From the NCBI RefSeq assembly GCF_003334355.1, contig NZ_QOWP01000027.1: DNA of 54,484 nt. One strand, written 5' to 3'. Each line of letters begins with the position of its first letter. Within the stretch, counting starts at the first letter, position 1. Source of the stretch: Escherichia coli. Its GTDB lineage: Bacteria > Pseudomonadota > Gammaproteobacteria > Enterobacterales > Enterobacteriaceae. Below the pieces are notes generated by a model. It was given only the letters and a program-made list of their open reading frames with translations. It had not been told where the DNA came from and ran no database searches. A program made the position numbers and the translations under genes. Shown here one piece after another: positions 6,690 to 49,903 of this stretch.

Positions 6690-6844
6690 ACTGCTTATTC
6701 CTTGATAAAACGGTTACACACGCCAGGACGGCAAAATAGATCCCAAATCGGAATAGTCTGGATTTGGAAGGCTCACATTATCACCAAAAGAGTTTTACGC
6801 AAGCCTGTCGGCGCAGGGTTTACAAATTTCATCGGCAGCGTGCT

Positions 6845-7123
6845 TTACCCAAAGAGCGCCGCGTGAGTTCCAGTTCTCTCAAATCGTAAAAGTTTATCGG
6901 TAAGTTTGTAAATCAGGATCCAGTCCGGTTCGACATGAGCATCGCGATAACCTTTCCATGAACCTTGCAGCGGGTGGTCTTTATAAACAGCTGGAAGCGG
7001 TAAAGCATTATTGATAAGAAGCGTCATAAGATATTTCAATTTATTCATATCCTTATGACGCTTTTGTGCAAGTTTTACATCCTTTGAAAATTGTCCCGAG
7101 TATTCAATATCCCTTTGAATCAT
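6845..7123 (-). CDS. yafQ: Type II toxin YafQ (RelE/ParE-fold mRNA interferase)
   Basis: 92-aa ORF directly downstream of dinJ with 2-nt gap; sequence MIQRDIEYSGQFSKDVKLAQKRHKDMNKL… typical of YafQ. Confidence 0.9.
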   Translation of the reverse strand: MIQRDIEYSGQFSKDVKLAQKRHKDMNKLKYLMTLLINNALPLPAVYKDHPLQGSWKGYRDAHVEPDWILIYKLTDKLLRFERTGTHAALFG

Positions 7124-7125
7124 AT

Positions 7126-7386
7126 TTAAATTCCTAATTTATCAAATAAATCATCGGCGTCTTTGGCCTTATGAACATCAACGCCAGCTTCGCTGTTTTT
7201 GATTGATTGAATGGTTAATTGATTAGGCTCGCGTAAATCAAACGGCAATGCCTTTTCACGCGCGACCTTTGTGAGGGTTATGCGAACCAGGTCAGAGATG
7301 GTCAGCCCCATCCCGGCCAGTACGTCCGCCGCCTGATTCTTCAGATCTTCATCGATTCGGGCGCGAACAAACGCGTTAGCAGCCAT
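7126..7386 (-). CDS. dinJ: Antitoxin DinJ
   Basis: 86-aa RHH-type antitoxin (MAANAFVRARIDEDLKNQAADVL…), ATG at 7386, LexA-box-like sequence upstream. Confidence 0.9.
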   Translation of the reverse strand: MAANAFVRARIDEDLKNQAADVLAGMGLTISDLVRITLTKVAREKALPFDLREPNQLTIQSIKNSEAGVDVHKAKDADDLFDKLGI

Positions 7387-7401
7387 TGGGGGATCTCCTG
7401 T

Positions 7402-7419
7402 GCTGTATATTTATTCAGC
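7402..7419 (-). promoter_or_regulatory. Putative LexA (SOS) box upstream of dinJ-yafQ
   Basis: gctgtatatttattcagc on + strand; reverse complement reads CTGaataaatatACAG, close to LexA consensus CTGT-N8-ACAG. Confidence 0.55.
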
Positions 7420-7595
7420 TTGAATTGTAGCTCAAATGAGCAACAGCGACAATCCATGAGTAATTTAATAAACGGATGTTTTTACATAATTAACTGAAAT
7501 ATATTTATTAATTTTATAATAATGGTTTATTAAGTTTGTTCAGGTACGGGCCGGGATACACTGTAACATCAATGCATGACCAGCCATTATTGAGA

Positions 7596-8434
<839 letters not shown>

Positions 8435-8520
8435 CGTTTTTGCGAGCCGCTTTCCTGTTATTCCATCACCTCATTGCCGACCTTTCCTTTTCTTCTTACC
8501 GTTGAGAAAAAGGAGTCGCC

Positions 8521-9018
8521 ATGTCTGAATATCGTCGTTATTACATCAAGGGGGGAACCTGGTTTTTCACGGTGAATTTACGCCATCGTCGAAGCCAACT
8601 CTTGACCACCCAGTACCAGATGCTCCGTAACGCCATTATTAAAGTTAAGCGAGACAGGCCTTTTGAAATCAACGCCTGGGTCGTTTTGCCAGAGCATATG
8701 CATTGCATATGGACATTACCTGAAGGCGATGATGATTTTTCCTCTCGCTGGCGGGAAATTAAAAAGCAATTTACCCATGCTTGTGGATTGAAAAATATCT
8801 GGCAACCACGTTTTTGGGAGCACACCATCCGCAATACCAAAGATTATAGGCATCATGTTGATTATATTTATATAAATCCAGTAAAGCATGGTTGGGTAAA
8901 GCAAGTGAGTGATTGGCCATTCTCAACGTTCCATCGCGATGTCGCGCGAGGGTTATATCCCATCGATTGGGCGGGGGACGTAACGGATATAAATGCTGGC
9001 GAGCGTATCATTTTATAA
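8521..9018 (+). CDS. yafM: REP-associated tyrosine transposase (RAYT, IS200/IS605-like HUH)
   Basis: 165-aa ORF, HUH motif (…LPEHMHCIWTLP…) and C-terminal Tyr region (DYIYINPVKHGW); flanked on both sides by REP clusters; AGGAG RBS. Confidence 0.85.
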   Translation: MSEYRRYYIKGGTWFFTVNLRHRRSQLLTTQYQMLRNAIIKVKRDRPFEINAWVVLPEHMHCIWTLPEGDDDFSSRWREIKKQFTHACGLKNIWQPRFWEHTIRNTKDYRHHVDYIYINPVKHGWVKQVSDWPFSTFHRDVARGLYPIDWAGDVTDINAGERIIL

Positions 9019-9020
9019 TT

Positions 9021-9226
9021 ATGCGCAGATGCCTGATGCGACGCTGGCGCGTCTTATCATGCCTACAAACCTGTGCCGGATCGGTAGGCCGGATAAGGCG
9101 TTTATGCCGCATCCGGCAGTTATGCGCAGATGCCTGATGCGACGCTGGCGCGTCTTATCATGCCTACAAACTTGTGCCTGAACGGTAGGACGGATAAGGC
9201 GTTCACGCCGCATCCGGCAGTTGTGC
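9021..9226. repeat. BIME (about 4 REP units)
   Basis: Alternating REP palindromes (gcctgatgcgacgctggcgcgtcttatcatgcctaca / ggtaggccggataaggcgtttatgccgcatccggca) repeated twice between yafM and lfhA. Confidence 0.85.
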
Positions 9227-9241
9227 ACCAATGCTGGATAC

Positions 9242-11335
9242 TTACATCAACGCCCCCATAATCTTCAACTCCAGCTCATCCGGCACTTCGTTATACGACA
9301 GCACATGCAGCCCCGGCGCAAACAACCTTGCATAACGCGCCAGCAAAGGGCGCAGCTGCGGTGGCACCAGCAGCACCGGGTCTTTCCCCGCCGCTTTCAT
9401 CTGCTCTTTCACCTGTGGCATCGTACTCTGGAACTGGTTGAGCATATTCGGATCGACCGGCACGCTGTCGAGCATCACTTTCCCGCCCTGTTGCGCCTGA
9501 TTCACCACGTTGGTCAGCAGATTTTCCAGCTCATTATTCAGCGTATACACCGTCAGCTCCTGCTTGCGAACGAACGGATGGGTAATGCTTCGCCGCAGCG
9601 CCAGGCGCACATCAGCTGCCAGCAGAATATGATCTTTGGTCACCGCGCTACTGGCGACCAGCACGGTGGCGATGGTGACGATATCGCGCAGGGAAACGCC
9701 TTCGGTCAGCAGCGCCCGGTACACTTTCAGCAACTGGCTGTAATTGAGCGCCGCGCTTAAATCTTCCGCCAGGCGCGGTGCCATCGACGCCAAACGGTTA
9801 TGCAACTGCGTAATATCATCATAGTTAAACAAATCAGGAATATAGCTGCGCACAATCTTGTTCACATGGGTAGCAATCACGCTGGCGCTGTCGATCACCT
9901 GATACCCCATATTCAGCGCCTTCGCCTTCTGCGCAGGCTGGATCCAGGTGACCGGCATCCCATACGCCGGGTCGTTCCCCAGCACGCCGTCAATCTCGCC
10001 GTAGGTTTCGCTGGAGGGCAGGGCCATCAGTTTATCCGCCGGAATATCCGCTTCATCAGCCTTAATGCCGTTGATGAAAATAGCGTACTGGCTGGGCTTA
10101 AGGCGGAAGTTTTCCCGAATGCGGATCTCCGGCAGCAGCACGCCGTTGCCGTCAGAAATCACCTGTCGCACGCCGCGAATACGCTGGGTGAGCGGGTTGC
10201 CCTGGGCTTTGTCCACCAGCGCCACCAGCTTGTAGCCGAGGCTTAAGCTGATGGGCTCGATCAGCGGAATGGTTTCCCAACTGACCTGTTGCTCGCTGGT
10301 TTCGGTGATGGTGCGGGTCAGCGTTTCGAGACTTTTCTCTTCCGCTTCCGCCGCCTGCGGGCGTTTGCTCATCCGCCAGCCGGTAAAGCCAAGCAGGGCG
10401 CTGAACAGCAAAAACGGCAGATGCGGCATTCCCGGCACCACCGCCAGCACAAACATAATCCCGGTAGCGGTGTAGAGCACCGACGGGCTTGCCAGCAGCT
10501 GGTGGCGCACGTCATGGGCGATATCGCCGTTGTCGCTGACGCGGGTGACGATAATCGCCGCCGCCGTGGAGAGCAGCAGGGAAGGGATCTGCGCCACCAG
10601 GCCGTCGCCGATGGTCATCAGCACATACTGCTGGAAGGCAGCATCGGCGCTCAGGTTGTATTTGAAGATCCCGATACAGACGCCGCCGATCAGGTTGATC
10701 GCCAGAATCATCATCCCGGCGATGGCGTCCCCGCGCACAAACTTCGATGCCCCGTCCATCGCGCCGTAGAAATCGGCCTCGCTGGCAACATCTTTACGCC
10801 GGGTTTGCGCCTGCGCCTGGTTGATCAATCCGGCGTTAAGATCGGCGTCAATCGCCATCTGTTTGCCGGGCATCGCGTCTAAGGTAAAGCGGGCAGAAAC
10901 CTCGGAAATACGCTCGGCCCCTTTGGTGACGACAATAAAGTTGATGATCATCAGGATGATAAACACCACGAAGCCGACGACAAAGTTGCCGCCGATCACC
11001 ACCTGACCAAACGACTCAATCACCTTACCCGCCGCGCCCGCGCCGAGATGCCCGTGCAGCAGCACCACGCGCGTAGAAGCAACGTTAAGCGTCAGGCGCA
11101 TTAAGGTGGTGATCAGCAAAATGGTCGGGAACAGGCTGAATTCCAGCGGCCTTTTCGCCGACACCGCCACCAGCAGCACCATCACCGCCAGCACAATGTT
11201 GAAGGTGAACAGAATATCCAGCAACGCAGGCGGCAGCGGCAAAATAACCATCGCCAGAATACAAAGTATCACCAGCGGCACGCCGAGATTGCCGCCGCGC
11301 AGCAGCGCGAGGAACGATTTAGTTGTTTTCGCCAT
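9242..11335 (-). CDS. lfhA: Flagellar type III export gate protein, FlhA homologue (lateral/Flag-2)
   Basis: 697 aa; N-terminal TM region with FlhA signature (…LPLPPALLDILFTFNIVLAVMVLLVA…FPTILLITTLMRLTLNVASTRVVL) and large cytoplasmic domain; ATG at 11335. Confidence 0.93.
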   Translation of the reverse strand: MAKTTKSFLALLRGGNLGVPLVILCILAMVILPLPPALLDILFTFNIVLAVMVLLVAVSAKRPLEFSLFPTILLITTLMRLTLNVASTRVVLLHGHLGAGAAGKVIESFGQVVIGGNFVVGFVVFIILMIINFIVVTKGAERISEVSARFTLDAMPGKQMAIDADLNAGLINQAQAQTRRKDVASEADFYGAMDGASKFVRGDAIAGMMILAINLIGGVCIGIFKYNLSADAAFQQYVLMTIGDGLVAQIPSLLLSTAAAIIVTRVSDNGDIAHDVRHQLLASPSVLYTATGIMFVLAVVPGMPHLPFLLFSALLGFTGWRMSKRPQAAEAEEKSLETLTRTITETSEQQVSWETIPLIEPISLSLGYKLVALVDKAQGNPLTQRIRGVRQVISDGNGVLLPEIRIRENFRLKPSQYAIFINGIKADEADIPADKLMALPSSETYGEIDGVLGNDPAYGMPVTWIQPAQKAKALNMGYQVIDSASVIATHVNKIVRSYIPDLFNYDDITQLHNRLASMAPRLAEDLSAALNYSQLLKVYRALLTEGVSLRDIVTIATVLVASSAVTKDHILLAADVRLALRRSITHPFVRKQELTVYTLNNELENLLTNVVNQAQQGGKVMLDSVPVDPNMLNQFQSTMPQVKEQMKAAGKDPVLLVPPQLRPLLARYARLFAPGLHVLSYNEVPDELELKIMGALM

Positions 11336-13231: not shown

Positions 13232-13504
13232 TTAATGCACCAGCAGGGCTGCCTGGGTAAACAGATGAATGCAGAGATCATGCAACTGGATAATCATCCA
13301 TTTGCCGCACACGCCCAGCACCACCAGCGTGACAATCAGCCTTGGCAAAAAGCTCAGGGTCTGTTCGTTAATCTGCGTCACCGCCTGGAACACGCTCACC
13401 AGCAGGCCAACCAGCAGGCTTGGCACGACCAGTACCGAAACCAGCAAAATCACCACTTTAATGCCGCTGGCGACAATGTCGGCGGCTACGTCTACGGTCA
13501 GCAT
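13232..13504 (-). CDS. lfiQ: Flagellar export apparatus protein, FliQ homologue
   Basis: 90 aa, two TM helices, FliQ-like core (…VFQAVTQINEQTLSFLPRLIV…). Confidence 0.9.
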   Translation of the reverse strand: MLTVDVAADIVASGIKVVILLVSVLVVPSLLVGLLVSVFQAVTQINEQTLSFLPRLIVTLVVLGVCGKWMIIQLHDLCIHLFTQAALLVH

Positions 13505-39260: not shown

Positions 39261-39745
39261 AGTTGAGTTTACCTTAGCAAGGGATAAATGTTACCTGATA
39301 GTGCTTTGCATAAAGCACAGTCTTATACGTCCCTGAGAAGATGATTTTTCTGCGTGATAATTAATATTTTATGGTAATAGGATTATTCTTAATCACTATA
39401 TGGCGTGGAAATGTAACGAAATGACAGGATAGGTACAATAGCCAAATGTGTACTATTTGCAACGCAATGTAAATTTTGGCATCAGTACATTGAGAAGAAA
39501 ACGCGTTAATTGATGGTAATCTTAACTATATCAAGCGTTTGATAAAGACATATTTTGATACCTGGCCATGTGGCAGATATTGCTAATAATCCTTTTATCT
39601 GAATTTAAACTCTGCTTTTTTTAGCTAAAAGTGGCATCAGATAAACCGCGCTGAAATTTTTTTAACGGCGGTTTTAAGTTTGCTCCCGAGGTGTCGTTTT
39701 TACAGGGTATCGAAACGAAAACGATTAATCCCAAGGAGCAGTATC

Positions 39746-40660
39746 ATGTTATCTATTAACACCAATAACGCCTCAATGGCCGCCGTTAATGCAATCAGCA
39801 AAAGCAGCTCTTCTCTGTCTACATCTATGGAACGCCTGGCGACAGGTAACCGGATTAACTCTTCTGCCGATGACGCAGCGGGCAAACAAATTGCTAACCG
39901 TCTGACTGCACAGTCAAGCGGTATGGGCGTGGCGCTGAGCAATATCAATGATGCCACCGCGATGCTGCAAACCGCCGACAGCATGTTCGATGAAATGTCT
40001 GACGTGCTGGGTCGTATGAAAGACCTGTCAACTCAGGCAGCGAACGGCACCTACAGCGACGACGACCTGCAGGCGATGCAGGACGAATACGACGAACTGG
40101 GTCAGCAGATGTCTGACATGCTGCAAAACACCACCTACGGCGGCACCAACCTGTTCGGTGTTTCCGGCACCAGCAACACCGGTACTGACGGCCTGTTCCA
40201 GAGCGCGGTAACCTTCCAGGTGGGCGCGGAATCTTCCGACACCATGACCGTGAACATTTCAAGCCAACTGAATACCCTGGTGACGGATCTTTCTGCTATC
40301 AGCAACTCCTTCAGTGCGGATCAGGCAGACACCACGGGTACTGCAGGCGTGTCTGGCGGTACTGAGCTGACTGCGTCTGGCTCGGCTAACCAGATGATTA
40401 CCAGCATTTCTACCGCGATGGATGACGTTTCTCAGATTCAGTCCAAGCTGGGTGCGTCTATTAACCGTCTGAACGACACTGCCAACAACCTGACCAGCAT
40501 GCAGGACAACACCGAAGTTGCTATCGGTAACATCATGGATACCGACTACGCGACGGAAGCGTCCAACATGACCAAACAGCAGGTGCTGATGCAGACCGGC
40601 ATCACCATGCTGAAACAGTCCAACAGCATGTCCAGCATGGTTTCCAGCCTGCTGCAGTAA
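39746..40660 (+). CDS. lafA: Lateral flagellin
   Basis: 304 aa from ATG 39746 with AAGGAG RBS; flagellin N-terminal domain (MLSINTNNASMAAVNAISK…LATGNRINSSADDAAGKQIANRLT…) and C-terminal domain (…VLMQTGITMLKQSNSMSSMVSSLLQ); short Ser/Thr/Gly-rich central region. Confidence 0.93.
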   Translation: MLSINTNNASMAAVNAISKSSSSLSTSMERLATGNRINSSADDAAGKQIANRLTAQSSGMGVALSNINDATAMLQTADSMFDEMSDVLGRMKDLSTQAANGTYSDDDLQAMQDEYDELGQQMSDMLQNTTYGGTNLFGVSGTSNTGTDGLFQSAVTFQVGAESSDTMTVNISSQLNTLVTDLSAISNSFSADQADTTGTAGVSGGTELTASGSANQMITSISTAMDDVSQIQSKLGASINRLNDTANNLTSMQDNTEVAIGNIMDTDYATEASNMTKQQVLMQTGITMLKQSNSMSSMVSSLLQ

Positions 40661-40791: not shown

Positions 40792-40824
40792 CAACACCGC
40801 CTGCGGGCGGTGTTGTGCTTTCTG
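40792..40824 (+). terminator. Candidate intrinsic terminator after lafA
   Basis: Perfect 10-bp GC-rich inverted repeat caacaccgcc-tgcg-ggcggtgttg followed by tgctttctg. Confidence 0.4.
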
Positions 40825-40903
40825 CGGCAGGCGTTTTTCCGCTAAAGCGGAAGCGTTCTTTCCGCCCATTTTTCAATCTATTGATTCTTCACATAAAAAA
40901 TAT

Positions 40904-40918
40904 TGGCACGCCTTTTGC
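40904..40918 (+). promoter_or_regulatory. Candidate sigma-54 (-24/-12) promoter for lafB operon
   Basis: TGGCACgccttTTGCc: exact TGGCAC-N5-TTGC spacing, about 33 nt upstream of lafB ATG. Confidence 0.55.
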
Positions 40919-40950
40919 CAATAACCTGACATCGTTATTCGGAGTCATCA

Positions 40951-42267
40951 ATGATCAACCCAAGAACCATTGCGCAAGAAATCGCCTATGCCGACGTTGC
41001 CACTCAGGCGGCAAACTTGCAGGAAAAGCAAACGGAGCTGGATGCTGAAAGCAGCGGCCTGGACTCGCTCAGCTCAGCGTTGAGCGATTTCCAGAGCGCC
41101 GTTGACGCGCTGAACAGCGATACCGACGGCCCGGTGACTTTTGCCGCCACCAGCAATAATGACTCGGCGACCGTTTCCGCCAATTCCCAGGCGCAGGCGG
41201 GAAGCTACTCATTTTTCGTTGAGCAACTGGCGCAGGGGCAGCAGACCACATTCAGTATGGGCGACGACGCCTTTTCCGCCACCGGCACCTTCGAACTGAC
41301 GATGGGCGACAGCACCATGGATATCGATCTGTCGGCGGCAGATCAGAACGGTGACGGCGATGGTTTTATCGACGCCAGCGAGCTGGTGAATGCGATTAAC
41401 GACTCCGATGACAATCCAGGCGTGTCGGCGGCACTGGTAAAAACCGACGGCACCACCACGATTATGCTCACCTCCGATAGCACCGGGGCGCAGAGCGCGT
41501 TTTCGGTGAGCGTAACGGGGCATGATGCCAGCAACGATAGCACCAGCGCGCCCGTTGCCACGGATGTTTCCTCCGCTCAGGACGCGATTATTCATCTCGG
41601 TAGCGCCACAGGGCCTGCGATCACCAACAGCAGCAATACATTTGATGATGTGATCCCCGGCGTCACCATGACTTTTACCGAAGTCAGCGATTCTGACAGC
41701 GATCTCACCACCTTTAATATCAGCGAAGATTCCAGCGCCAGCCAGGAGAAAGTACAGACCTTTGTCGATGCCTATAACACCTTGATTGATACGGTTGATT
41801 CGCTGACCACTCACGGTGATGACAGTACCAGCGCCGGGGTATTTGCAGGCGACGCCGGGCTCAGTTCACTGGCGAACCAGCTCGATGACATCGCCCATGC
41901 CAGCTACAACGGCGTGTCGATTGTTGACTATGGCATCACCCTCGATTCTCACGGCCACTTACAGATTGACTCCGACCAGTTCAACGACGAAATGGCGAAA
42001 AATCCTGACGGTCTGACCTCTATTTTCGTTGGCGACAACAGCATGGTGGCGCAGATGGACGACCTGATTAACACCTACACGGACTCCAGCAACGGCATCA
42101 TCACCCTGCGCCAGCAGAACATTGACGATCAGATGAGCAAAATTCAGGACGAAGGCGATCAGCTTACCGATACCTATAACGCCAACTACGACCGTTATCT
42201 GGAGGAGTACACCAACACGCTGGTTGAGGTGTACACCATGAAAGCCAGCATGGCGGCATTCGCGTAA
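40951..42267 (+). CDS. lafB: Flagellar filament cap protein, FliD homologue
   Basis: 438 aa; FliD-like N-terminal coiled coil and C-terminal domain; ATG 40951. Confidence 0.9.
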   Translation: MINPRTIAQEIAYADVATQAANLQEKQTELDAESSGLDSLSSALSDFQSAVDALNSDTDGPVTFAATSNNDSATVSANSQAQAGSYSFFVEQLAQGQQTTFSMGDDAFSATGTFELTMGDSTMDIDLSAADQNGDGDGFIDASELVNAINDSDDNPGVSAALVKTDGTTTIMLTSDSTGAQSAFSVSVTGHDASNDSTSAPVATDVSSAQDAIIHLGSATGPAITNSSNTFDDVIPGVTMTFTEVSDSDSDLTTFNISEDSSASQEKVQTFVDAYNTLIDTVDSLTTHGDDSTSAGVFAGDAGLSSLANQLDDIAHASYNGVSIVDYGITLDSHGHLQIDSDQFNDEMAKNPDGLTSIFVGDNSMVAQMDDLINTYTDSSNGIITLRQQNIDDQMSKIQDEGDQLTDTYNANYDRYLEEYTNTLVEVYTMKASMAAFA

Positions 42268-42289
42268 CTCAGAAGGAATATCCCTAAAG

Positions 42290-42682
42290 ATGTACCAAGT
42301 ACAGGATGGCTATTCGCAATATAAAGAGATCGATCTCGCGGCGCGTACTGCGGCGGCATCGCCTCTGGAACTGGTGCTGGTGCTGTTTTCTGGCCTGATG
42401 GACGAGCTGGAACGCGCCAAAAGCCATATTGAAGGGCGGCGTTTCGAGAAGAAAGCCCAGAGCATCAATAAATGCATCGACATTCTCAATGCGCTCACCA
42501 GTTCGTTGGAGTTTGAAACCGGCGGCGAGCTGGTGGTCAACCTTTCGCGCCTCTATGACCACTGCGTTTACCGATTGTATGAGGCCAGCGGCGAACTGTC
42601 GGCAGAGAAAATCGATGAAGTGATGCTGATCTTAAGCAACCTGCGCGAAGGCTGGGAAGGGCTTTCGGGCAAGCTGGGTTAA
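42290..42682 (+). CDS. lafC: Flagellin-specific chaperone, FliS homologue
   Basis: 130 aa with FliS-like four-helix core (…ELVLVLFSGLMDELERAKSHIE…CIDILNALTSSLEFETGGELVVNLSRLYDHCVYRL…). Confidence 0.9.
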   Translation: MYQVQDGYSQYKEIDLAARTAAASPLELVLVLFSGLMDELERAKSHIEGRRFEKKAQSINKCIDILNALTSSLEFETGGELVVNLSRLYDHCVYRLYEASGELSAEKIDEVMLILSNLREGWEGLSGKLG

Positions 42683-42686
42683 GACG

Positions 42687-42998
42687 ATGGATAAACAATG
42701 CAGGCAACTTTTCGCACTGGTCGAGGCGATGAATGAAGCCCTCGACAAGCAACGCTGGCGACGCCTTCCGGCACTGCATCAGCAGTTGATGCGCCAGTTT
42801 CACGATTACGCGGCGGCGGAAACCGATGCGGCGCAGTTGGATGCAGTGAAAGCGCGACTTTATGACGCGTTTAACGCCCTGATTAAACGGCGCGAGCAGC
42901 GCACAGAAGTGTTGAAGGCGCGTATGGAACAGCATCAGCGGCATCAGGAAGGCGTACTGGCCTACTCAATTGTTAATTTACTTTCGGAGAAGTCATGA
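42687..42998 (+). CDS. lafD: FliT-like export chaperone/regulator
   Basis: 103-aa helical protein immediately after fliS homologue. Confidence 0.65.
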   Translation: MDKQCRQLFALVEAMNEALDKQRWRRLPALHQQLMRQFHDYAAAETDAAQLDAVKARLYDAFNALIKRREQRTEVLKARMEQHQRHQEGVLAYSIVNLLSEKS

Positions 42999-44056
42999 AT
43001 CCGGCATTGCTTGCCACGCTCGGAACGCTTGCGGAAACCGCTTCGTTGAAGGCGGATATTTTACCGCCGGTGAGCGGTGAAAACGCGCCCGCGTTTACCC
43101 TGCCGAAAATGGCGGTCGCGGCGGTGGCGGAGCGCGTTCATAGCGCTAAAACCAGTCAGCAACAGGCGACGCGCCCGCAGGAGAACGATCCGGTGGCGAT
43201 GCAGGCGCTAATGGCGCTGTTACTTCCACAACCTGCCGCGCCGCATCAGGACACGCCGCAGCCGCGAAACGTCGCAACATCGCCGGTTATCCAGCAATTG
43301 ACGAAAGCGGTGGTGCAAAACGCGCCGCAACGCCCGACGCAACAGCAGGAACTCACGCCGTTGCCGCCGCAGTTGCAGGAACTGATCAGTCAGTTGCCGC
43401 AGGAGAAACCCGAACAGCAGGCCAGACTGGCGACTTACGCCAGTGAAGATTTACATGCCATTGCGTCGACGCAGCCGCGCGTCTCAACACAGCCAGCTCG
43501 CCCGAAACCTGAACTAACCCGTGTGACCGCGCGCCCGCAGGTCGAGCGTAAAACGGAAAAAGTGCCGGACAGCGAACCGGTTATTGCGCGTGCGGTGTTG
43601 CAGGTTAAGACGCCGGAGCTGGTCAGCGATCATCAGGAGATTGTCGCCAAACCCGTCACGCTTTCGATGGACGAACTGGGCGAAAAACTGACGACGCTGT
43701 TGAAAGATCAGATCCACTTTCAGCTCAACAAACAACAGCAGATCTCCACCATCCGTCTCGATCCACCGTCGCTTGGCAAGCTCGAGATCGCCGTACAACT
43801 CGACAACGGCAAACTGATGGTGCACATCGGCGCGAACCAAAGTGAAGTTTGCCGCGCGTTACAGCAGTTTAGCGACGATCTCCGCCAGCATCTGACGGCG
43901 CAAAATTTTATGGAGGTGAACGTACAGGTTTCCTCCGAAGGGCAGTCGCAGCAACAACAACAGTCGGGCCATCAGCAGGAAGAGGTGAGTGCTGCCTTAC
44001 AGCTTGATGATGCGCCTCAATTTCAACAGAACGAATCCGTTTTGATCAAAGTGTAA
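42995..44056 (+). CDS. lafE: Hook-length control protein, FliK-like
   Basis: 353 aa; Pro/Gln-rich central region and conserved FliK C-terminal domain (…IRLDPPSLGKLEIAVQLDNGKLMVHIGANQSEV…); start overlaps lafD stop. Confidence 0.8.
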   Translation: MNPALLATLGTLAETASLKADILPPVSGENAPAFTLPKMAVAAVAERVHSAKTSQQQATRPQENDPVAMQALMALLLPQPAAPHQDTPQPRNVATSPVIQQLTKAVVQNAPQRPTQQQELTPLPPQLQELISQLPQEKPEQQARLATYASEDLHAIASTQPRVSTQPARPKPELTRVTARPQVERKTEKVPDSEPVIARAVLQVKTPELVSDHQEIVAKPVTLSMDELGEKLTTLLKDQIHFQLNKQQQISTIRLDPPSLGKLEIAVQLDNGKLMVHIGANQSEVCRALQQFSDDLRQHLTAQNFMEVNVQVSSEGQSQQQQQSGHQQEEVSAALQLDDAPQFQQNESVLIKV

Positions 44057-44063
44057 AGGCAAT

Positions 44064-44531
44064 ATGAAGAAAATCGTGGTGGCGGGCGTGGTCAGCGCCG
44101 TTCTGGCGTTGGTGGTGGGGGCCGGAGCTGGATGGGGTGTCTGGCATCATTATGCCGGAAAAGGAAAACCGACTGCCGCCGCGCAGACGGAAACGGTGGA
44201 AACCCTGGATGAGAGCAAAAGCGTGTTTGTGACGTTGCCGGAAACCATTGTCACGCTGCATGACAATAACGGCGCGGACCATTATTTGTCGGCGGAATTA
44301 GTGATGGTGGTCGCCAGTGACAAAGAAGCGGAAAAAATAAAACATCAGGAGCCGCTGTATCAAAGTATTGCGGTTGAATGCCTGACGGAAATGAAATTTG
44401 AAGATTTGCGTGGCATGAAAATATCCGCCATCCGCAAACTCATTTCTGACGCGTTAAAGAAAGATCTTCAGCGTCGCAAAATGAGCGCACCGTATAAGGA
44501 TTTGCTGGTGAAAAAAGTGGTCTTCCAGTAA
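44064..44531 (+). CDS. lafF: Flagellar basal-body-associated protein, FliL homologue
   Basis: 155 aa, single N-terminal TM helix (IVVAGVVSAVLALVVGAGAGW) plus periplasmic FliL-like domain. Confidence 0.85.
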   Translation: MKKIVVAGVVSAVLALVVGAGAGWGVWHHYAGKGKPTAAAQTETVETLDESKSVFVTLPETIVTLHDNNGADHYLSAELVMVVASDKEAEKIKHQEPLYQSIAVECLTEMKFEDLRGMKISAIRKLISDALKKDLQRRKMSAPYKDLLVKKVVFQ

Positions 44532-44550
44532 TCACCAGGCGGATATAAAT

Positions 44551-45267
44551 ATGCTACAGGATGTATTCGAGTCGGAAGAATTTGCTGCCGCGCCGGTATT
44601 AACCCCGCAGCAGGAGAGCCACTACTTGCAGGCCTATTTACCGTTGGTGCGTAAAGTGGTGCGGCAACTTGCCCCGCAGTGTAATTGCATTATTGATCGT
44701 CAGGATATGGAACAAACGGCGTTAATGGGGCTGCTTAATGCCATCCGCCGCTACGGGCTGCCGGACGAAGGTTTTGCGGGCTATGCCGTGCACCGTATTC
44801 GCGGCGCGATCCTGGATGAGCTGCGCGCTCTCGACTGGCGACCGCGCCAGCTGCGACAGAAATATCATCAGATGAAAGATCTGATTCGCGAAACGCGCAA
44901 AAAACTGGGGCACGAACCGGAGTGGTCAGAACTGGCCGTGGAAGGGATCTCGCATGAAGATTATCTCGAATATCAGCAACTGGAAGGGGCGGAAACGCTC
45001 GCCAGCCTGGACGAACTGCTGAACAGCGAAGGGCCAGGCATTCCGCTTGCTGGCCGGGAGCTGGAAGATCAGTTTGTCACTCAGCAAATGCTGCAACAGG
45101 CGCTTTCACAATTAAGCGAAAAAGAGCAACTGATCCTCTCCATGTATTACCAGCATGAGATGAATCTCAAAGAGATTGCGCTGGTATTAGGGCTAACCGA
45201 GGCCCGAATTTGTCAACTGAATAAACAGATCGCGCAGAAAATTCGTGATTTTGTCTATCCGAATTAA
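44551..45267 (+). CDS. lafS: Flagellar sigma-28 factor (FliA family)
   Basis: 238 aa; sigma-70 family regions 2 and 4 (…LILSMYYQHEMNLKEIALVLGLTEARICQLNKQIAQKIR). Confidence 0.9.
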   Translation: MLQDVFESEEFAAAPVLTPQQESHYLQAYLPLVRKVVRQLAPQCNCIIDRQDMEQTALMGLLNAIRRYGLPDEGFAGYAVHRIRGAILDELRALDWRPRQLRQKYHQMKDLIRETRKKLGHEPEWSELAVEGISHEDYLEYQQLEGAETLASLDELLNSEGPGIPLAGRELEDQFVTQQMLQQALSQLSEKEQLILSMYYQHEMNLKEIALVLGLTEARICQLNKQIAQKIRDFVYPN

Positions 45268-45279
45268 AGTGAAGAAATC

Positions 45280-46143
45280 ATGCAAAAAATATTAGGTTTA
45301 CTGGTGGTGCTCGGCTGCGTATTTGGCGGTTATTTTGAAGCGGGCGGGCAATTAGTGGCTATCTGGCAACCGGCGGAAATGATCATTATTTTGGGTGCCG
45401 GTTTCGGGGCGATGATTATTGGTAACCCGAAACATGTGCTGAAAGAGATTGCCCATCAAATTAAAGGCGTGATCAGTAAAAAACAGCTCGGGCCGGAGTT
45501 TCAGCGCCAGCTATTAATGTGCCTGTATGAGTTACTCGAAATGGTGCAAAACGGTGGTCTGCGCATGCTGGATCAACATATTGAGCAACCGGAAGAGAGC
45601 ACCATTTTCCAGAAATACCCGCTGGTGTTAACCCAGAAGCGGCTGGTGACCTTTATTGCCGATAACTTTCGCCTGATGGCGATGGGTAAAATCGACGCCC
45701 ATGAACTGGAAGGCATTCTCGATCAGGAACTGGACACCGCGGAAGAGTCGCTGCTAACGCCGTCGCGCTCGCTGCAACGTACCGCCGAAGCGATGCCGGG
45801 GTTTGGCATTTGTGCGGCGGTGTTGGGCATCATCATCACCATGCAGTCGATTGACGGCTCTATCGCCCTGATTGGCCTGAAAGTGGCGGCAGCGCTGGTG
45901 GGGACATTTTTAGGCGTCTTTATCTGCTACTGCCTGATGGACCCACTCGCCAACGCCATGGAACAACAGGCGCGGGCAGAACATTCTTTGCTGGAATGCG
46001 TGCGTACCGTGCTGGTGGCGCAGGCAGGCGGCAAACCGACGCTGCTGGCGGTGGACGCCGGGCGTAAGCTACTGCATCTGGCGTCCAAACCGACCTTCGC
46101 CAACCTCGACGCGTGGGTGAATGCGATGCTGGAGCAAGAATAA
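45280..46143 (+). CDS. lafT: Flagellar stator protein, MotA homologue
   Basis: 287 aa, four TM helices, MotA/TolQ/ExbB-like. Confidence 0.92.
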   Translation: MQKILGLLVVLGCVFGGYFEAGGQLVAIWQPAEMIIILGAGFGAMIIGNPKHVLKEIAHQIKGVISKKQLGPEFQRQLLMCLYELLEMVQNGGLRMLDQHIEQPEESTIFQKYPLVLTQKRLVTFIADNFRLMAMGKIDAHELEGILDQELDTAEESLLTPSRSLQRTAEAMPGFGICAAVLGIIITMQSIDGSIALIGLKVAAALVGTFLGVFICYCLMDPLANAMEQQARAEHSLLECVRTVLVAQAGGKPTLLAVDAGRKLLHLASKPTFANLDAWVNAMLEQE

Positions 46144-46145
46144 GC

Positions 46146-47069
46146 ATGAGAAAGACGGGTAACCGCCGCGATCGTGGGGCAAAAACCACCATCGTCCGGC
46201 GGCAGATCAAAAAGAATCATGCCGGGCACCACGGCGGGGCGTGGAAGGTGGCGTTCGCCGACTTTACTTTGGCAATGATGGCGCTGTTTATGACGCTGTG
46301 GATTGTCAACAGCGTCAGTAAATCCGAGCGTGAAAGCATTATCGCCGCGCTGCACGGGCAGTCGATTTTTAACGGTGGTGGGCTGTCGCCGTTAAATAAA
46401 ATCAGCCCGTCTCATCCGCCAAAACCTGCCACCGTGGCGGTGCCGGAAGAGACGGAGAAAAAAGCGCGCGACGTCAACGAGAAAACGGCGCTGCTGAAGA
46501 AGAAATCCGCCACCGAGCTTGGCGAGCTGGCAACCAGTATCAACACAATTGCCCGTGATGCGCATATGGAAGCGAATCTGGAGATGGAGATTGTTCCCCA
46601 GGGATTGCGCGTGCTGATTAAAGATGACCAGAATCGCAATATGTTCGAACGCGGCAGCGCGCAGATTATGCCGTTCTTTAAAACGCTGCTGGTGGAGCTC
46701 GCGCCAGTGTTCGACTCGCTCGATAACAAAATTATTATTACCGGGCATACCGATGCGATGGCCTACAAAAACAATATCTACAACAACTGGAACCTTTCGG
46801 GTGACCGCGCGCTTTCGGCTCGTCGGGTGCTGGAAGAGGCCGGAATGCCGGAAGATAAAGTGATGCAGGTAAGCGCAATGGCGGACCAGATGCTGCTGGA
46901 CGCGAAGAATCCGCAAAGTGCGGGTAATCGGCGCATCGAGATTATGGTGCTGACCAAAAGTGCGTCCGATACGCTGTATCAATACTTTGGTCAGCATGGG
47001 GATAAAGTGGTGCAGCCGCTGGTGCAAAAGCTGGATAAGCAGCAGGTGCTTTCGCAGCGAACGCGCTAA
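46146..47069 (+). CDS. lafU: Flagellar stator protein, MotB homologue (OmpA-like C-terminal domain)
   Basis: Start ATG 46146 (MRKTGNRRDRG…) just after lafT stop; TM helix (FADFTLAMMALFMTLWIV) and OmpA-type peptidoglycan-binding domain (…ITGHTDAMAY…NWNLSGDRALSARRVLEE…NRRIEI). Confidence 0.9.
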   Translation: MRKTGNRRDRGAKTTIVRRQIKKNHAGHHGGAWKVAFADFTLAMMALFMTLWIVNSVSKSERESIIAALHGQSIFNGGGLSPLNKISPSHPPKPATVAVPEETEKKARDVNEKTALLKKKSATELGELATSINTIARDAHMEANLEMEIVPQGLRVLIKDDQNRNMFERGSAQIMPFFKTLLVELAPVFDSLDNKIIITGHTDAMAYKNNIYNNWNLSGDRALSARRVLEEAGMPEDKVMQVSAMADQMLLDAKNPQSAGNRRIEIMVLTKSASDTLYQYFGQHGDKVVQPLVQKLDKQQVLSQRTR

Positions 47070-47105
47070 ATGCTGAATCTTTACGCATTTCTCAAACCCT
47101 GAAAT

Positions 47106-47125
47106 CACTGTATACTTTACCAGTG
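47106..47125 (+). promoter_or_regulatory. LexA (SOS) box of dinB promoter
   Basis: cACTGTatactttacCAGTg, near-consensus CTGT-N8-ACAG palindrome about 15 nt upstream of dinB ATG. Confidence 0.75.
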
Positions 47126-47139
47126 TTGAGAGGTGAGTA

Positions 47140-48195
47140 ATGCGTAAAATCATTCATGTGGATATGGACTGCTTTTTCGCCGCAGTGGAGATGCGCGACA
47201 ATCCCGCCCTGCGCGATATCCCTATTGCTATTGGCGGCAGCCGCGAACGTCGGGGGGTGATCAGCACCGCCAATTATCCCGCGCGTAAATTTGGCGTACG
47301 TAGCGCTATGCCGACAGGGATGGCGCTCAAATTATGCCCGCATCTCACCTTGCTTCCGGGGCGCTTTGACGCCTACAAAGAAGCCTCAAATCATATCCGC
47401 GAAATCTTCTCGCGCTACACCTCGCGTATTGAACCGTTGTCACTGGATGAGGCTTATCTCGACGTCACCGATAGCGTCCATTGCCACGGTTCTGCGACCC
47501 TCATCGCCCAGGAAATCCGCCAGACGATTTTCAACGAGCTGCAACTGACGGCGTCTGCGGGCGTGGCACCCGTAAAGTTTCTCGCCAAAATCGCCTCCGA
47601 CATGAATAAACCCAACGGCCAGTTTGTGATTACGCCGGCAGAAGTTCCGGCATTTTTACAAACCTTACCACTGGCAAAAATCCCCGGCGTCGGCAAAGTC
47701 TCGGCGGCAAAACTGGAAGCGATGGGGCTACGAACCTGCGGTGATGTACAAAAGTGTGATCTGGTGATGCTGCTTAAACGCTTTGGCAAATTTGGCCGCA
47801 TTTTGTGGGAGCGTAGTCAGGGGATTGACGAGCGCGACGTTAACAGCGAACGGTTGCGAAAATCCGTCGGCGTGGAACGCACGATGGCGGAAGATATCCA
47901 CCACTGGTCTGAATGTGAAGCGATTATCGAGCGGCTGTATCCGGAACTTGAACGCCGTCTGGCAAAGGTAAAACCTGATTTACTGATTGCCCGCCAGGGG
48001 GTGAAATTAAAGTTCGACGATTTTCAGCAAACCACTCAGGAGCACGTCTGGCCGCGGCTGAATAAAGCTGACTTAATCGCCACCGCGCGTAAAACCTGGG
48101 ATGAACGCCGCGGCGGGCGCGGTGTGCGACTGGTGGGGCTGCATGTGACGTTGCTTGATCCGCAAATGGAAAGACAACTGGTGCTGGGATTATGA
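47140..48195 (+). CDS. dinB: DNA polymerase IV (Y-family)
   Basis: 351 aa starting [22 protein letters not shown]… (Y-family catalytic DMDCFFA motif). Confidence 0.95.
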
Positions 48196-48246
48196 TGTAT
48201 ACTATTATGTCTATTCTGGTGTGCATTATTATGAGGGGATCACTGC

Positions 48247-48540
48247 ATGCATCGAATTCTCGCTGAAAAATCGGTCAATATTACTGAGTTACGTAAAAAC
48301 CCAGCTAAATACTTTATTGATCAACCGGTTGCGGTTCTTTCTAATAATCGCCCCGCAGGATATCTCTTAAGTGCCAGCGCATTCGAAGCGTTAATGGACA
48401 TGCTTGCTGAACAAGAGGAGAAAAAGCCCATAAAGGCGCGCTTCCGTCCAAGTGCTGCAAGATTAGAGGAAATTACACGCCGAGCTGAAAAATATCTTAA
48501 TGATATGACGGATGATGATTTCAATGACTTTAAGGAATAA
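48247..48540 (+). CDS. yafN: Antitoxin YafN (Phd/YefM family)
   Basis: 97-aa ORF immediately upstream of yafO in dinB operon. Confidence 0.88.
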   Translation: MHRILAEKSVNITELRKNPAKYFIDQPVAVLSNNRPAGYLLSASAFEALMDMLAEQEEKKPIKARFRPSAARLEEITRRAEKYLNDMTDDDFNDFKE

Positions 48541-48542
48541 GG

Positions 48543-48941
48543 ATGCGGGTATTCAAAACAAAACTTATTCGCCTGCAACTTACAGCAGAGGAACTTGATG
48601 CGTTAACGGCGGATTTTATTTCCTATAAGCGTGACGGTGTTTTGCCAGATATATTTGGTCGCGATGCACTCTACGACGACTCGTTTACCTGGCCATTAAT
48701 CAAATTTGAGCGAGTTGCTCATATTCATCTGGCAAATGTGAATAATCCATTTCCGCCACAGTTGCGCCAATTCAGCAGAACGAATGACGAAGCGCATTTG
48801 GTATATTGTCAGGGTGCGTTTGATGAGCAAGCATGGTTGCTCATTGCCATTCTGAAACCTGAACCTCATAAACAGGCTCGAGATAACAACCAAATGCATA
48901 AAATTGGGAAAATGGCAGAAGCGTTTCGCATGCGTTTTTGA
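48543..48941 (+). CDS. yafO: Toxin YafO (ribosome-dependent mRNA interferase)
   Basis: 132-aa ORF, 2 nt after yafN stop. Confidence 0.88.
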   Translation: MRVFKTKLIRLQLTAEELDALTADFISYKRDGVLPDIFGRDALYDDSFTWPLIKFERVAHIHLANVNNPFPPQLRQFSRTNDEAHLVYCQGAFDEQAWLLIAILKPEPHKQARDNNQMHKIGKMAEAFRMRF

Positions 48942-48950
48942 ATTTATATT

Positions 48951-49403
48951 ATGAATAACATACAAATAAGAGACTATCAGCCTGGCGATTTTCAGCAACT
49001 ATGCGCTATTTTCATTAGAGCGGTTACGATGATCTCCAGTCAGCATTATTCACCACAACAAATTGCCGCCTGGGCGCAGATTGACGAATCTCGCTGGAAG
49101 GAGAAACTCGCGAAATCACAAGTGCGGGTTGCCGTCATTAATGCACAACCGGTTGGTTTTATTACCTGCGTTGAACGTTATATCGATATGTTATTTGTTG
49201 ACCCTGAATACACCCGCCGCGGGGTTGCCTGCGCTTTGTTAAAACCTTTGATTAAGTCTGAATCCGAACTTACGGTGGACGCCAGCATAACCGCAAAACC
49301 CTTTTTTGAACGTTATGGTTTTCAGACAGTTAAGCAGCAGCGCGTTGAATGCCGGGGAACGTGGTTTACTAATTTTTATATGCGATATAAACCGCAATAT
49401 TAA
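48951..49403 (+). CDS. yafP: GNAT-family N-acetyltransferase YafP
   Basis: 150 aa with GNAT acetyl-CoA-binding signature (…RRGVACALLKPL…). Confidence 0.88.
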   Translation: MNNIQIRDYQPGDFQQLCAIFIRAVTMISSQHYSPQQIAAWAQIDESRWKEKLAKSQVRVAVINAQPVGFITCVERYIDMLFVDPEYTRRGVACALLKPLIKSESELTVDASITAKPFFERYGFQTVKQQRVECRGTWFTNFYMRYKPQY

Positions 49404-49636: not shown

Positions 49637-49903
49637 ATGGAATGGTACATGGGCAAATATATTCGTCCCTTATCCGATGCGGTATTTACCATCGCATCTG
49701 ATGACCTGTGGATCGAGAGTTTAGCGATCCAACAATTACACACCACGGCAAATTTACCCAACATGCAGCGCGTAGTGGGGATGCCAGATTTACACCCCGG
49801 ACGCGGCTACCCGATTGGCGCAGCGTTCTTCTCTGTTGGTCGTTTTTACCCGACAAGACGTCGCTGTAACGGTGCTGGAAACAGAAACGGGCCGCTACTC
49901 TGA
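49637..49903 (+). pseudogene. RtcB-family RNA ligase 5' fragment (ykfJ-like remnant)
   Basis: First about 66 residues match RtcB N-terminus including …[21 protein letters not shown]…; reading frame then degenerates and stops after 88 codons. Confidence 0.7.

What the first reader, a model, noticed from the sequence alone, without database searches (positions are those of the whole stretch)
6845..7419. Two SOS-linked toxin-antitoxin modules flank the flagellar island
dinJ-yafQ (with a LexA-box-like site at 7402-7419) lies about 2 kb left of Flag-2, and dinB-yafN-yafO-yafP (LexA box at 47106-47125) lies immediately right of lafU. These are core K-12 features, but the island is thereby sandwiched between DNA-damage-inducible loci, and lafU ends only about 70 bp before the dinB promoter, so read-through from the lafB operon into dinB is conceivable.
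Basis: partly seen in the sequence, partly recalled or inferred. Interest (0 to 1): 0.3.

Follow-up and report, generated by a model that had tools for sequence, protein, structure and literature searches.

The report
Known toxin-antitoxin pairs beside Flag-2

Summary
yafQ (6845-7123, -) and dinJ (7126-7386, -) sit behind a strong LexA-type box (7401-7420). dinB-yafN-yafO-yafP (47140-49403, +) sits behind the classical dinB box (47106-47125), 70 bp after the lafU stop codon. All proteins match curated families. Both boxes and the lafU-dinB spacer are essentially identical to K-12.

The interpretation needs trimming in three places:
- Neither toxin-antitoxin (TA) module is core to E. coli. dinJ-yafQ is in 61% and yafNO in 52% of 5,426 complete genomes.
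- Both modules are rarer in Flag-2-positive genomes (about 48% and 31%) than in Flag-2-negative ones. The two-sided flanking occurs in at most 396 genomes and looks like accidental synteny.
- Published work shows clear SOS induction only for dinB-yafNOP. LexA binds the dinJ operator, but damage induction there is equivocal.

The read-through idea survives only in silico. lafBCDEFSTU appears to be a sigma-54 operon with no intrinsic terminator before dinB, whereas lafA has a strong one. A LexA-occupied operator and a predicted RNA pairing that hides the dinB ribosome-binding site would both limit any effect. No transcript data exist. The loci are already known and interest is low.

The parts
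6845..7123 (-). yafQ, RelE-family ribosome-dependent mRNA interferase toxin (92 aa)
   Evidence: ORF. NCBIfam TIGR00053 'YafQ family addiction module toxin', 119.9 bits against a cut-off of 87.25. RefSeq annotation under 100%-identical hits.
7126..7386 (-). dinJ, RelB/DinJ antitoxin (86 aa), upstream of yafQ with a 2-nt gap
   Evidence: ORF. NCBIfam TIGR02384 RelB_DinJ, 83.7 bits against a cut-off of 45.65. RefSeq annotation.
7401..7420 (.). dinJ LexA box TGCTGTATATTTATTCAGCT, between the -10 hexamer and the Shine-Dalgarno sequence of dinJ
   Evidence: Weight-matrix score 22.9 bits, the top of the window and above 18 of 24 known boxes in leave-one-out scoring. Identical in K-12.
7424..7452 (-). 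sigma-70-like dinJ promoter (TTGTCG, 17-nt spacer, TACAAT)
   Evidence: Consensus scan. Minus-strand view: the -10 hexamer ends 3 nt before the LexA box, and AGGAG precedes the ATG.
9242..11335 (-). lfhA (FlhA homologue), the left end of Flag-2. The K-12-type deletion begins about 10961.
   Evidence: ORF. The K-12 remnant is 1,719 bp.
40792..40815 (+). strong intrinsic terminator after lafA (10-bp stem, 7 GC pairs)
   Evidence: Included as a contrast with the terminator-less end of lafU.
40904..40919 (+). sigma-54-type promoter motif TGGCACGCCTTTTGCC, 31 bp upstream of the lafB ATG
   Evidence: 1 mismatch to TGGCAC-N5-TTGCW. Function is inferred.
40951..47069 (+). predicted lafBCDEFSTU operon, eight tightly packed same-strand genes (gaps of 22 nt or less)
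   Evidence: ORF map. No strong terminator-like site inside on the + strand. lafU 46146-47069 matches the NF005273 LafU equivalog at 579.6 bits.
47070..47139 (+). 70-nt lafU-dinB spacer holding the dinB promoter; no terminator
   Evidence: 99% identical to K-12. Present in 5,388 of 5,426 genomes.
47089..47116 (+). sigma-70-like dinB promoter (TTCTCA, 16-nt spacer, TATACT)
   Evidence: Consensus scan. The -10 hexamer lies inside the LexA box.
47106..47125 (.). dinB LexA box CACTGTATACTTTACCAGTG
   Evidence: Weight-matrix score 15.2 bits, a weak operator that beats 1 of 24 known boxes. Identical in K-12 and in two other Escherichia species.
47083..47145 (+). predicted RNA hairpin, present only in read-through transcripts, pairing 47083-47100 with the dinB Shine-Dalgarno sequence and AUG (47131-47145)
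   Evidence: free energy -20.8 kcal/mol. Unpaired probability of the SD-AUG stretch is 0.20 for read-through RNA and 0.46 for RNA starting near 47123. No covariation support. Speculative.
47140..48195 (+). dinB, DNA polymerase IV (351 aa)
   Evidence: NCBIfam NF002677 equivalog, 546.9 bits against a cut-off of 256.
48247..48540 (+). yafN antitoxin (97 aa)
   Evidence: NCBIfam NF007300 equivalog, 196.7 bits against a cut-off of 99.
48543..48941 (+). yafO toxin (132 aa)
   Evidence: NCBIfam NF007377 equivalog, 245.9 bits against a cut-off of 153.
48951..49403 (+). yafP, GNAT N-acetyltransferase, the last gene of the dinB operon
   Evidence: NCBIfam NF007338 equivalog, 322.3 bits against a cut-off of 146.

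Best explanation
The window is an E. coli chromosome segment with the ancestral, undeleted Flag-2 lateral-flagella cluster in its usual place between rayT and dinB. On either side lie two ordinary, previously characterised type II toxin-antitoxin (TA) modules.

On the left, dinJ-yafQ is transcribed leftward from its own sigma-70 promoter. Its start region is covered by a high-affinity LexA box, and the locus is also autorepressed by DinJ.

On the right, dinB-yafN-yafO-yafP is one operon. Its weak LexA operator overlaps the -10 hexamer, and LexA cleavage after DNA damage derepresses it. yafNO also has its own YafN-autoregulated promoter, which does not respond to SOS.

The flanking of Flag-2 by these modules is accidental synteny. 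dinJ-yafQ, Flag-2 and yafNO are each independent presence/absence polymorphisms.

The lafBCDEFSTU operon, predicted to be sigma-54 dependent, ends 70 nt before dinB without an intrinsic terminator. Some transcription may therefore continue into dinB when Flag-2 is expressed. I expect the effect to be small, because LexA sits on the operator and the extended 5' leader is predicted to pair with the dinB ribosome-binding site.

Shown here: gene identities, box sequences and positions, absence of a terminator, and population frequencies. Taken from the literature: LexA binding and induction behaviour. Inferred: the sigma-54 promoter, the extent of the operon, and the damping of read-through.
For: - Identities: NCBIfam equivalog or subfamily hits above the curated cut-offs for YafQ, DinJ, DinB, YafN, YafO, YafP and LafU.
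- Same gene order and annotation in K-12. The spacer and both boxes are identical to K-12.
- LexA scoring.
- Population counts among 5,426 complete genomes: dinJ-yafQ 3,320, Flag-2 interior 1,280, yafNO 2,834, dinJ-yafQ with Flag-2 615, yafNO with Flag-2 396, lafU-3'/dinB junction 5,388.
- The Flag-2 figure agrees with the 24 of 100 strains in PMC6993521, and the yafNO figure with the roughly 50% in PMC3105422.
- Mitomycin C induction of yafNO is lost when the dinB promoter is deleted (PMC2814082).
- dinB, yafN, yafO and yafP are co-induced by ciprofloxacin (PMC11002266).
- No terminator-like hairpin lies in 47070-47139, whereas lafA has a 10-bp, GC-rich terminator.
- A sigma-54 motif lies 31 bp before lafB.
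Against: - Nothing here measures transcription, so both the claim that read-through is minor and the extent of the operon are inferences.
- The LexA weight matrix was built from boxes recalled from memory.
- The cross-tabulations use three different Flag-2 probes and an 80% coverage threshold, so the percentages are approximate. They are also confounded by phylogeny.
- The predicted RBS-masking hairpin has no covariation support. Its arms overlap the -35 hexamer and the start codon, which are conserved for other reasons.
Confidence: 0.85

Rival explanations
1. Functional read-through coupling. When the Flag-2 cascade (LafK and sigma-54) fires the lafB operon, RNA polymerase runs past lafU, displaces LexA and transcribes dinB-yafNOP. 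Lateral-flagella induction would then raise Pol IV and YafO independently of DNA damage.
For: - Same strand, a 70-nt gap, and no intrinsic terminator.
- The spacer is not C-rich, so there is no obvious Rho loading site.
- The neighbouring lafA gene does have a strong terminator, so terminators are used inside this cluster.
- The lafB operon looks like one long unit, from a sigma-54 motif to lafU.
Against: - There are no transcript data.
- The spacer is equally conserved in the roughly 76% of genomes that have lost Flag-2, so its conservation is explained by the dinB promoter alone.
- A LexA-occupied operator lies in the path.
- Read-through RNA is predicted to hide the dinB SD-AUG stretch (unpaired probability 0.20 against 0.46). 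Untranslated dinB RNA would be open to Rho, and the C/G ratio reaches 1.73 near 47340.
Confidence: 0.12
2. The two TA modules act as addiction anchors that stabilise the Flag-2 island against deletion.
For: Only the geometry in this window, plus the general idea, from my own knowledge of the field, that TA loci can stabilise adjacent DNA.
Against: - Flag-2 has been deleted in about 76% of genomes by an lfhA-lafU event that leaves both TA loci untouched (PMC6993521).
- Both modules lie outside the deletion end points.
- dinJ-yafQ (about 48% against 65%) and yafNO (about 31% against 59%) are less common in Flag-2-positive than in Flag-2-negative genomes.
- B2 strains such as NC101 and O25b:H4 keep Flag-2 with no dinJ-yafQ.
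Confidence: 0.02
3. One or both 'LexA boxes' are chance CTG-N10-CAG palindromes with no regulatory role.
For: - The bare motif is not enriched in the window.
- The dinB box scores only 15.2 bits, inside the null tail.
- dinJ damage induction has not been observed in several studies (PMC4996492).
Against: - The dinJ box scores 22.9 bits, above all 60 resamples.
- Both boxes overlap predicted promoter cores.
- The CTG and CAG cores are invariant in divergent E. coli alleles and in other Escherichia species.
- A dinJ-lacZ fusion rises 2-3-fold in a lexA deletion strain (PMC6015884).
- dinB-yafNOP is damage-induced from the dinB promoter (PMC2814082, PMC11002266).
Confidence: 0.03

Closest known systems
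E. coli K-12 dinJ-yafQ type II toxin-antitoxin locus (RelB/RelE superfamily)
   Same: - Same genes, order, 2-nt spacing, promoter and LexA box. The 1.1-kb region is 97.6% identical to K-12 and the box is identical.
- HMM hits are above the cut-offs.
- The residues I recall as catalytic in YafQ (His50, His63, Asp67, His87; from memory) are all present in the translated sequence.
   Different: Nothing of substance: a few SNPs. The locus is absent from 39% of complete E. coli genomes, so it is an accessory locus, not a core one.
E. coli K-12 dinB-yafN-yafO-yafP SOS operon (McKenzie et al. 2003; Christensen-Dalsgaard et al. 2010, PMC2814082; Gutierrez et al. 2011, PMC3105422)
   Same: The four-gene form of the operon, with the same LexA box, the same promoter and the same 70-nt distance from the lafU stop codon.
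   Different: Here the upstream lafU is full length and is the last gene of an apparently intact operon. In K-12 it is a promoter-less remnant. Read-through from upstream is therefore only conceivable in Flag-2-positive strains like this one.
Flag-2 lateral flagellar locus of E. coli 042 and Enterobacterales (Ren et al. 2005; De Maayer et al. 2020, PMC6993521)
   Same: The same cluster, from lfhA to lafU, in the same chromosomal slot. The prevalence I measured (1,280 of 5,426, or 23.6%) matches the published 24%.
   Different: None found that bear on this finding. I did not check whether every Flag-2 gene in the window is intact.

Membership tests
Type II TA, YafQ/RelE toxin with DinJ/RelB antitoxin | Toxin matches the YafQ-family profile above the curated cut-off | tested here: met
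   TIGR00053, 119.9 bits against 87.25, covering residues 4-91 of 92.
Type II TA, YafQ/RelE toxin with DinJ/RelB antitoxin | Antitoxin matches the RelB/DinJ profile above the curated cut-off | tested here: met
   TIGR02384, 83.7 bits against 45.65, covering residues 1-84 of 86.
Type II TA, YafQ/RelE toxin with DinJ/RelB antitoxin | Two small adjacent co-oriented genes with the antitoxin first | tested here: met
   dinJ 7386-7126 is followed by yafQ 7123-6845 after a 2-nt gap.
Type II TA, YafQ/RelE toxin with DinJ/RelB antitoxin | Toxin cleaves mRNA on the ribosome and is neutralised by the antitoxin | not testable with these tools
   Known for the K-12 proteins (summarised in PMC4996492). The region here is 97.6% identical in DNA.
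Type II TA, YafN-YafO | Equivalog-level profile matches for both proteins, with the antitoxin gene first | tested here: met
   NF007300, 196.7 bits against 99. NF007377, 245.9 bits against 153. yafN 48247-48540 is followed by yafO 48543-48941.
LexA (SOS) regulon operator | CTG-N10-CAG palindrome with an AT-rich spacer that scores like known boxes | tested here: met
   The dinJ site scores 22.9 bits and beats 18 of 24 known boxes. The dinB site scores 15.2 bits and beats 1 of 24, so it is weak but inside the training range.
LexA (SOS) regulon operator | The operator overlaps the promoter core or the transcription start | tested here: met
   The dinB box contains the -10-like TATACT at 47111-47116. 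The dinJ box starts 4 nt downstream of the -10-like TACAAT. The promoters are consensus predictions.
LexA (SOS) regulon operator | LexA binds the site | not testable with these tools
   Literature only: LexA binding to the dinJ promoter is cited in PMC4996492 and PMC6015884. dinB is a classical LexA target (PMC2814082).
LexA (SOS) regulon operator | Transcription rises after DNA damage | not testable with these tools
   Literature: yes for dinB-yafNOP (PMC2814082, PMC11002266). For dinJ-yafQ it is equivocal: 2-3-fold derepression in a lexA deletion strain (PMC6015884), but induction 'has not been seen' (PMC4996492).
Intrinsic (Rho-independent) terminator at the lafU-dinB junction | GC-rich stem-loop followed by a run of T between 47069 and 47140 | tested here: not met
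   The + strand has no hit in that interval. The fold shows only the LexA-box palindrome and a long-range pairing to the dinB RBS, with no T tract.

The most novel reading that the evidence does not exclude
In Flag-2-positive E. coli, the terminator-less sigma-54 lafBCDEFSTU operon reads through into dinB-yafNOP. Induction of lateral flagella, for example on surfaces, would then raise error-prone Pol IV and the YafO toxin without DNA damage. That would be a link between a motility programme and mutagenesis or growth arrest, and K-12 would have lost it along with the Flag-2 deletion.
Probability: 0.07. Interest if true: 0.5.

Novelty: already known. Interest (0 to 1): 0.1.

Why it matters
As it stands this matters little, because every element is a textbook K-12 locus or a published Flag-2 feature.

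The useful outcome is corrective. The flanking of Flag-2 by two TA modules is a minority configuration, found in at most 7% of complete genomes. It is built from three independently variable elements and is not a designed arrangement.

Only the read-through possibility could matter. If lateral-flagella expression fed transcription into dinB-yafNOP, it would give Pol IV an SOS-independent input in roughly a quarter of E. coli strains. That is cheap to test by junction RT-PCR.

Tried and rejected
- A sigma-28 promoter scan (TAAAG-N14-GCCGATAA, up to 3 mismatches) gave 27 hits against 13 expected. None had fewer than 2 mismatches or lay in an informative position before lafS, lafT or lafU, so I did not use it.
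- An exact-pattern scan of the species-representative genomes with the dinB box returned only two other Escherichia species, both with an identical spacer. I therefore have no view of other genera and no covariation data.
- Covariation support for the RBS-masking hairpin: eight alleles, including the most divergent E. coli ones, show no compensatory change. There is one C-to-T change that gives a G-U wobble at 47098. The hairpin stays speculative.
- The second-ranked LexA-like 20-mer, 13284-13303 (16.5 bits), lies inside the lfiQ/lfiR coding sequence and has CAT in place of CAG. I rejected it as chance. The same applies to 52314-52333.
- The putative LexA box reported in the yafN promoter: the best matrix score there is -4 bits. 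This fits the published finding that this promoter does not respond to mitomycin C (PMC2814082).
- Rho loading site in the spacer: the C/G ratio is about 1.1, which is unremarkable.
- Ren et al. 2005 (PMC545627) and Ruangprasert et al. 2014 (PMC4110269) are not held in the library. Their content is cited only second-hand.
- The TA 'island-stabiliser' idea is rejected on the population counts.

Full report
**Observation.**
- On the minus strand, yafQ (6845-7123, 92 aa) follows dinJ (7126-7386, 86 aa) after a 2-nt gap.
- Fifteen bases upstream of the dinJ ATG lies the 20-mer TGCTGTATATTTATTCAGCT (7401-7420), with CTG-N10-CAG at 7403-7418.
- On the plus strand, lafU ends with TAA at 47067-47069 and dinB starts at 47140. 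The 70-nt spacer holds CACTGTATACTTTACCAGTG at 47106-47125.
- dinB is followed by yafN (48247-48540), yafO (48543-48941) and yafP (48951-49403).
- One detail needs correcting. The 70 bp is the distance from the lafU stop to the dinB start codon. The promoter lies inside that spacer: the -35-like TTCTCA is at 47089-47094 and the -10-like TATACT at 47111-47116, within the LexA box.

**Identity.**
- All proteins hit curated NCBIfam models above their cut-offs. The scores in bits against the cut-off are:

| Protein | Score | Cut-off |
|---|---|---|
| YafQ family toxin | 119.9 | 87.25 |
| RelB/DinJ antitoxin | 83.7 | 45.65 |
| DNA polymerase IV | 546.9 | 256 |
| YafN | 196.7 | 99 |
| YafO | 245.9 | 153 |
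| YafP-type GNAT | 322.3 | 146 |
| LafU | 579.6 | 383 |

- The window is an E. coli chromosome, with 100%-identical hits in several complete genomes.
- K-12 has the same order: dpaA, yafQ, dinJ, yafL, rayT, an lfhA remnant, a lafU remnant, dinB, yafN, yafO, yafP.
- The K-12 lfhA remnant is 1,719 bp. Alignments of K-12-type genomes to the lafU query begin at window 46298-46301. The K-12-type deletion therefore corresponds to roughly window 10961-46300.
- Both LexA boxes are identical to those of K-12. The lafU-dinB spacer differs from K-12 by one SNP (T47138C); a second difference lies in the last lafU codon.

**Are the LexA boxes more than chance?**
- The bare CTG-N10-CAG motif is not enriched: 17 found against 11.65 expected, and 8 of 100 shuffles reach 17.
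- I built a symmetrised weight matrix from 24 other E. coli LexA boxes. dinB and dinJ were excluded.
- The dinJ site scores 22.9 bits. It is the best 20-mer in the window, above the maximum of 60 Markov resamples (18.6) and above 18 of 24 known boxes in leave-one-out scoring.
- The dinB site scores 15.2 bits. It ranks third in the window, beats only 1 of 24 known boxes and lies inside the null tail.
- The dinB box is therefore credible because of its position over the -10 hexamer and its identity to the validated K-12 operator, not because of its sequence score.
- The CTG and CAG cores are invariant in the most divergent E. coli alleles and in two other Escherichia species. Two natural SNPs move the outermost bases towards the consensus: CACTG to TACTG, and CAGTG to CAGTA.
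- The two other 20-mers at or above 15 bits are 13284-13303, inside lfiQ/lfiR, and 52314-52333. Both lack CTG..CAG and I regard them as chance.

**What the literature says about SOS control.**
- For the right-hand module the case is solid. yafNO mRNA rises with mitomycin C, and the rise disappears when the dinB promoter is deleted. yafN's own promoter is autoregulated and does not respond to SOS (PMC2814082). My matrix finds nothing LexA-like at that promoter, with a best score of -4 bits.
- dinB, yafN, yafO and yafP are co-induced by ciprofloxacin, with log2 fold changes of about 2-3 (PMC11002266).
- For dinJ-yafQ, LexA binds the promoter and a dinJ-lacZ fusion is 2-3-fold higher in a lexA deletion strain (PMC6015884). 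A later summary states that induction after damage 'has not been seen' experimentally (PMC4996492).
- The better operator by sequence therefore belongs to the locus with the weaker SOS phenotype. The locus is also repressed by DinJ itself (PMC4996492), which may be why, though I did not test this. 'SOS-linked' is fair for both modules. 'DNA-damage-inducible' is documented only for the right-hand one.

**Is the flanking meaningful?** Counts among 5,426 complete E. coli genomes:

| Element | Genomes | Share |
|---|---|---|
| dinJ-yafQ | 3,320 | 61% |
| Flag-2 interior | 1,280 | 23.6% |
| yafNO | 2,834 | 52% |
| lafU-3'/dinB junction | 5,388 | 99% |

- The Flag-2 figure matches the 24 of 100 strains in PMC6993521. 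The yafNO figure matches the roughly 50% of ECOR strains in PMC3105422.
- I built two chimeric queries that reach 80% coverage only if both elements are present. dinJ-yafQ together with the Flag-2 left end occurs in 615 genomes. yafNO together with the Flag-2 right end occurs in 396.
- So about 48% of Flag-2-positive genomes have dinJ-yafQ, against about 65% of Flag-2-negative ones. About 31% have yafNO, against about 59%.
- The complete arrangement seen in this window exists in at most 396 genomes (7%). B2 strains such as NC101 and O25b:H4 carry Flag-2 with no dinJ-yafQ.
- The percentages are approximate, because three different Flag-2 probes were used and the counts are not corrected for phylogeny. 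The direction is still clear: there is no positive association.
- The common Flag-2 deletion removes DNA between lfhA and lafU and leaves both modules in place. An island-stabilising role is therefore contradicted. The flanking is accidental synteny of three independently variable elements. 'Core' is true of K-12 but not of the species.

**Read-through.**
- The last part of Flag-2 has a clear predicted structure. lafA (39680-40660) is followed by a strong terminator at 40792-40815, with a 10-bp stem and 7 GC pairs.
- A sigma-54-type motif, TGGCACGCCTTTTGCC, lies at 40904-40919, 31 bp before lafB.
- Eight genes then run from 40951 to 47069 with gaps of 22 nt or less.
- No terminator-like hairpin lies between 47069 and 47140. 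The spacer is neither T-tailed nor C-rich.

Three things argue that it would be modest:
- The LexA-occupied operator lies in the path. That it would act as a roadblock is my inference.
- In RNA that starts upstream, 47083-47100 is predicted to pair with the dinB Shine-Dalgarno sequence and AUG (47131-47145). The pairing is ACGCAUU with AAUGCGU, then CUCA with UGAG, then CCU with AGG, at -20.8 kcal/mol. This lowers the mean unpaired probability of the SD-AUG stretch from 0.46, for RNA starting near 47123, to 0.20.
- An untranslated dinB 5' region would be exposed to Rho. The C/G ratio reaches 1.73 near 47340, at or above the 95th percentile of the window.

The hairpin has no covariation support. 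Its arms coincide with the -35 hexamer and the start codon, and 7-bp inverted repeats are common by chance. I treat it as a hypothesis. The spacer is equally conserved in genomes without Flag-2, so the dinB promoter alone explains its conservation. I found no paper that addresses transcription across this junction. dinB geneticists use lafU' only as a flanking segment in K-12 dinB allele cassettes, next to a linked cat marker (PMC4564189).

**Comparison and verdict.**
- These are the K-12 dinJ-yafQ locus and the four-gene dinB operon, lying next to the published Flag-2 cluster. Every sequence-level membership feature that I could test was met.
- Biochemical features (toxin activity, LexA binding, induction) rest on the literature.
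- The one feature tested and not met is an intrinsic terminator at the junction.
- Novelty: already known. Interest is low, about 0.1.
- The only reading with some novelty is that sigma-54-driven lafB transcription feeds dinB-yafNOP in Flag-2-positive strains. I put this at about 7% for a physiologically meaningful effect. A junction RT-PCR under LafK induction in a lexA(Ind-) background would settle it.

Noticed in passing
window 8346-9241; L002:4197-4824 (strain M8): The slot between yafL and lfhA is polymorphic. This window and K-12 carry rayT (8521-9018, REP-associated tyrosine transposase). Many other strains carry a hicAB toxin-antitoxin pair there instead, with or without Flag-2 and with or without dinJ-yafQ. 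The left border of Flag-2 is therefore a small hotspot where TA and REP-associated genes are swapped.
   Followed up: partly
window 6830-7655; L002:3090-3382: In about 39% of complete genomes dinJ-yafQ is missing from the dpaA-yafL interval. Strain M8 has a 292-bp intergenic region there, against roughly 900 bp here. The exact deletion or insertion end points were not mapped.
   Followed up: partly
window 40792-40919: A strong lafA terminator (10-bp stem, 7 GC pairs, at 40792-40815) and further hairpins at 40836-40865 lie ahead of a near-consensus sigma-54 motif (40904-40919) upstream of lafB. This is a clean operon boundary inside Flag-2.
   Followed up: partly
window 47083-47145: A predicted long-range RNA pairing between the -35 region of the dinB promoter and the dinB Shine-Dalgarno sequence and AUG. 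It can form only in transcripts that start upstream of the promoter (-20.8 kcal/mol). There is no covariation evidence.
   Followed up: yes
window 47106 and 47125; L007, L009: Natural dinB-box variants move towards the LexA consensus: TACTG... in strain Q5 and ...CAGTA in strain AR_0086. They might tighten repression of Pol IV in those lineages.
   Followed up: no
window 49637-50372: An RtcB-like N-terminal fragment (49637-49903) and a prfH fragment (49815-50372) lie downstream of yafP. K-12 annotates the equivalent genes as pseudogenes.
   Followed up: no
search result H161 (NZ_CP054224.1): In at least one genome an IS1A element is inserted within the yafN-yafO region. The match is split into two pieces spanning 1,493 bp.
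   Followed up: no
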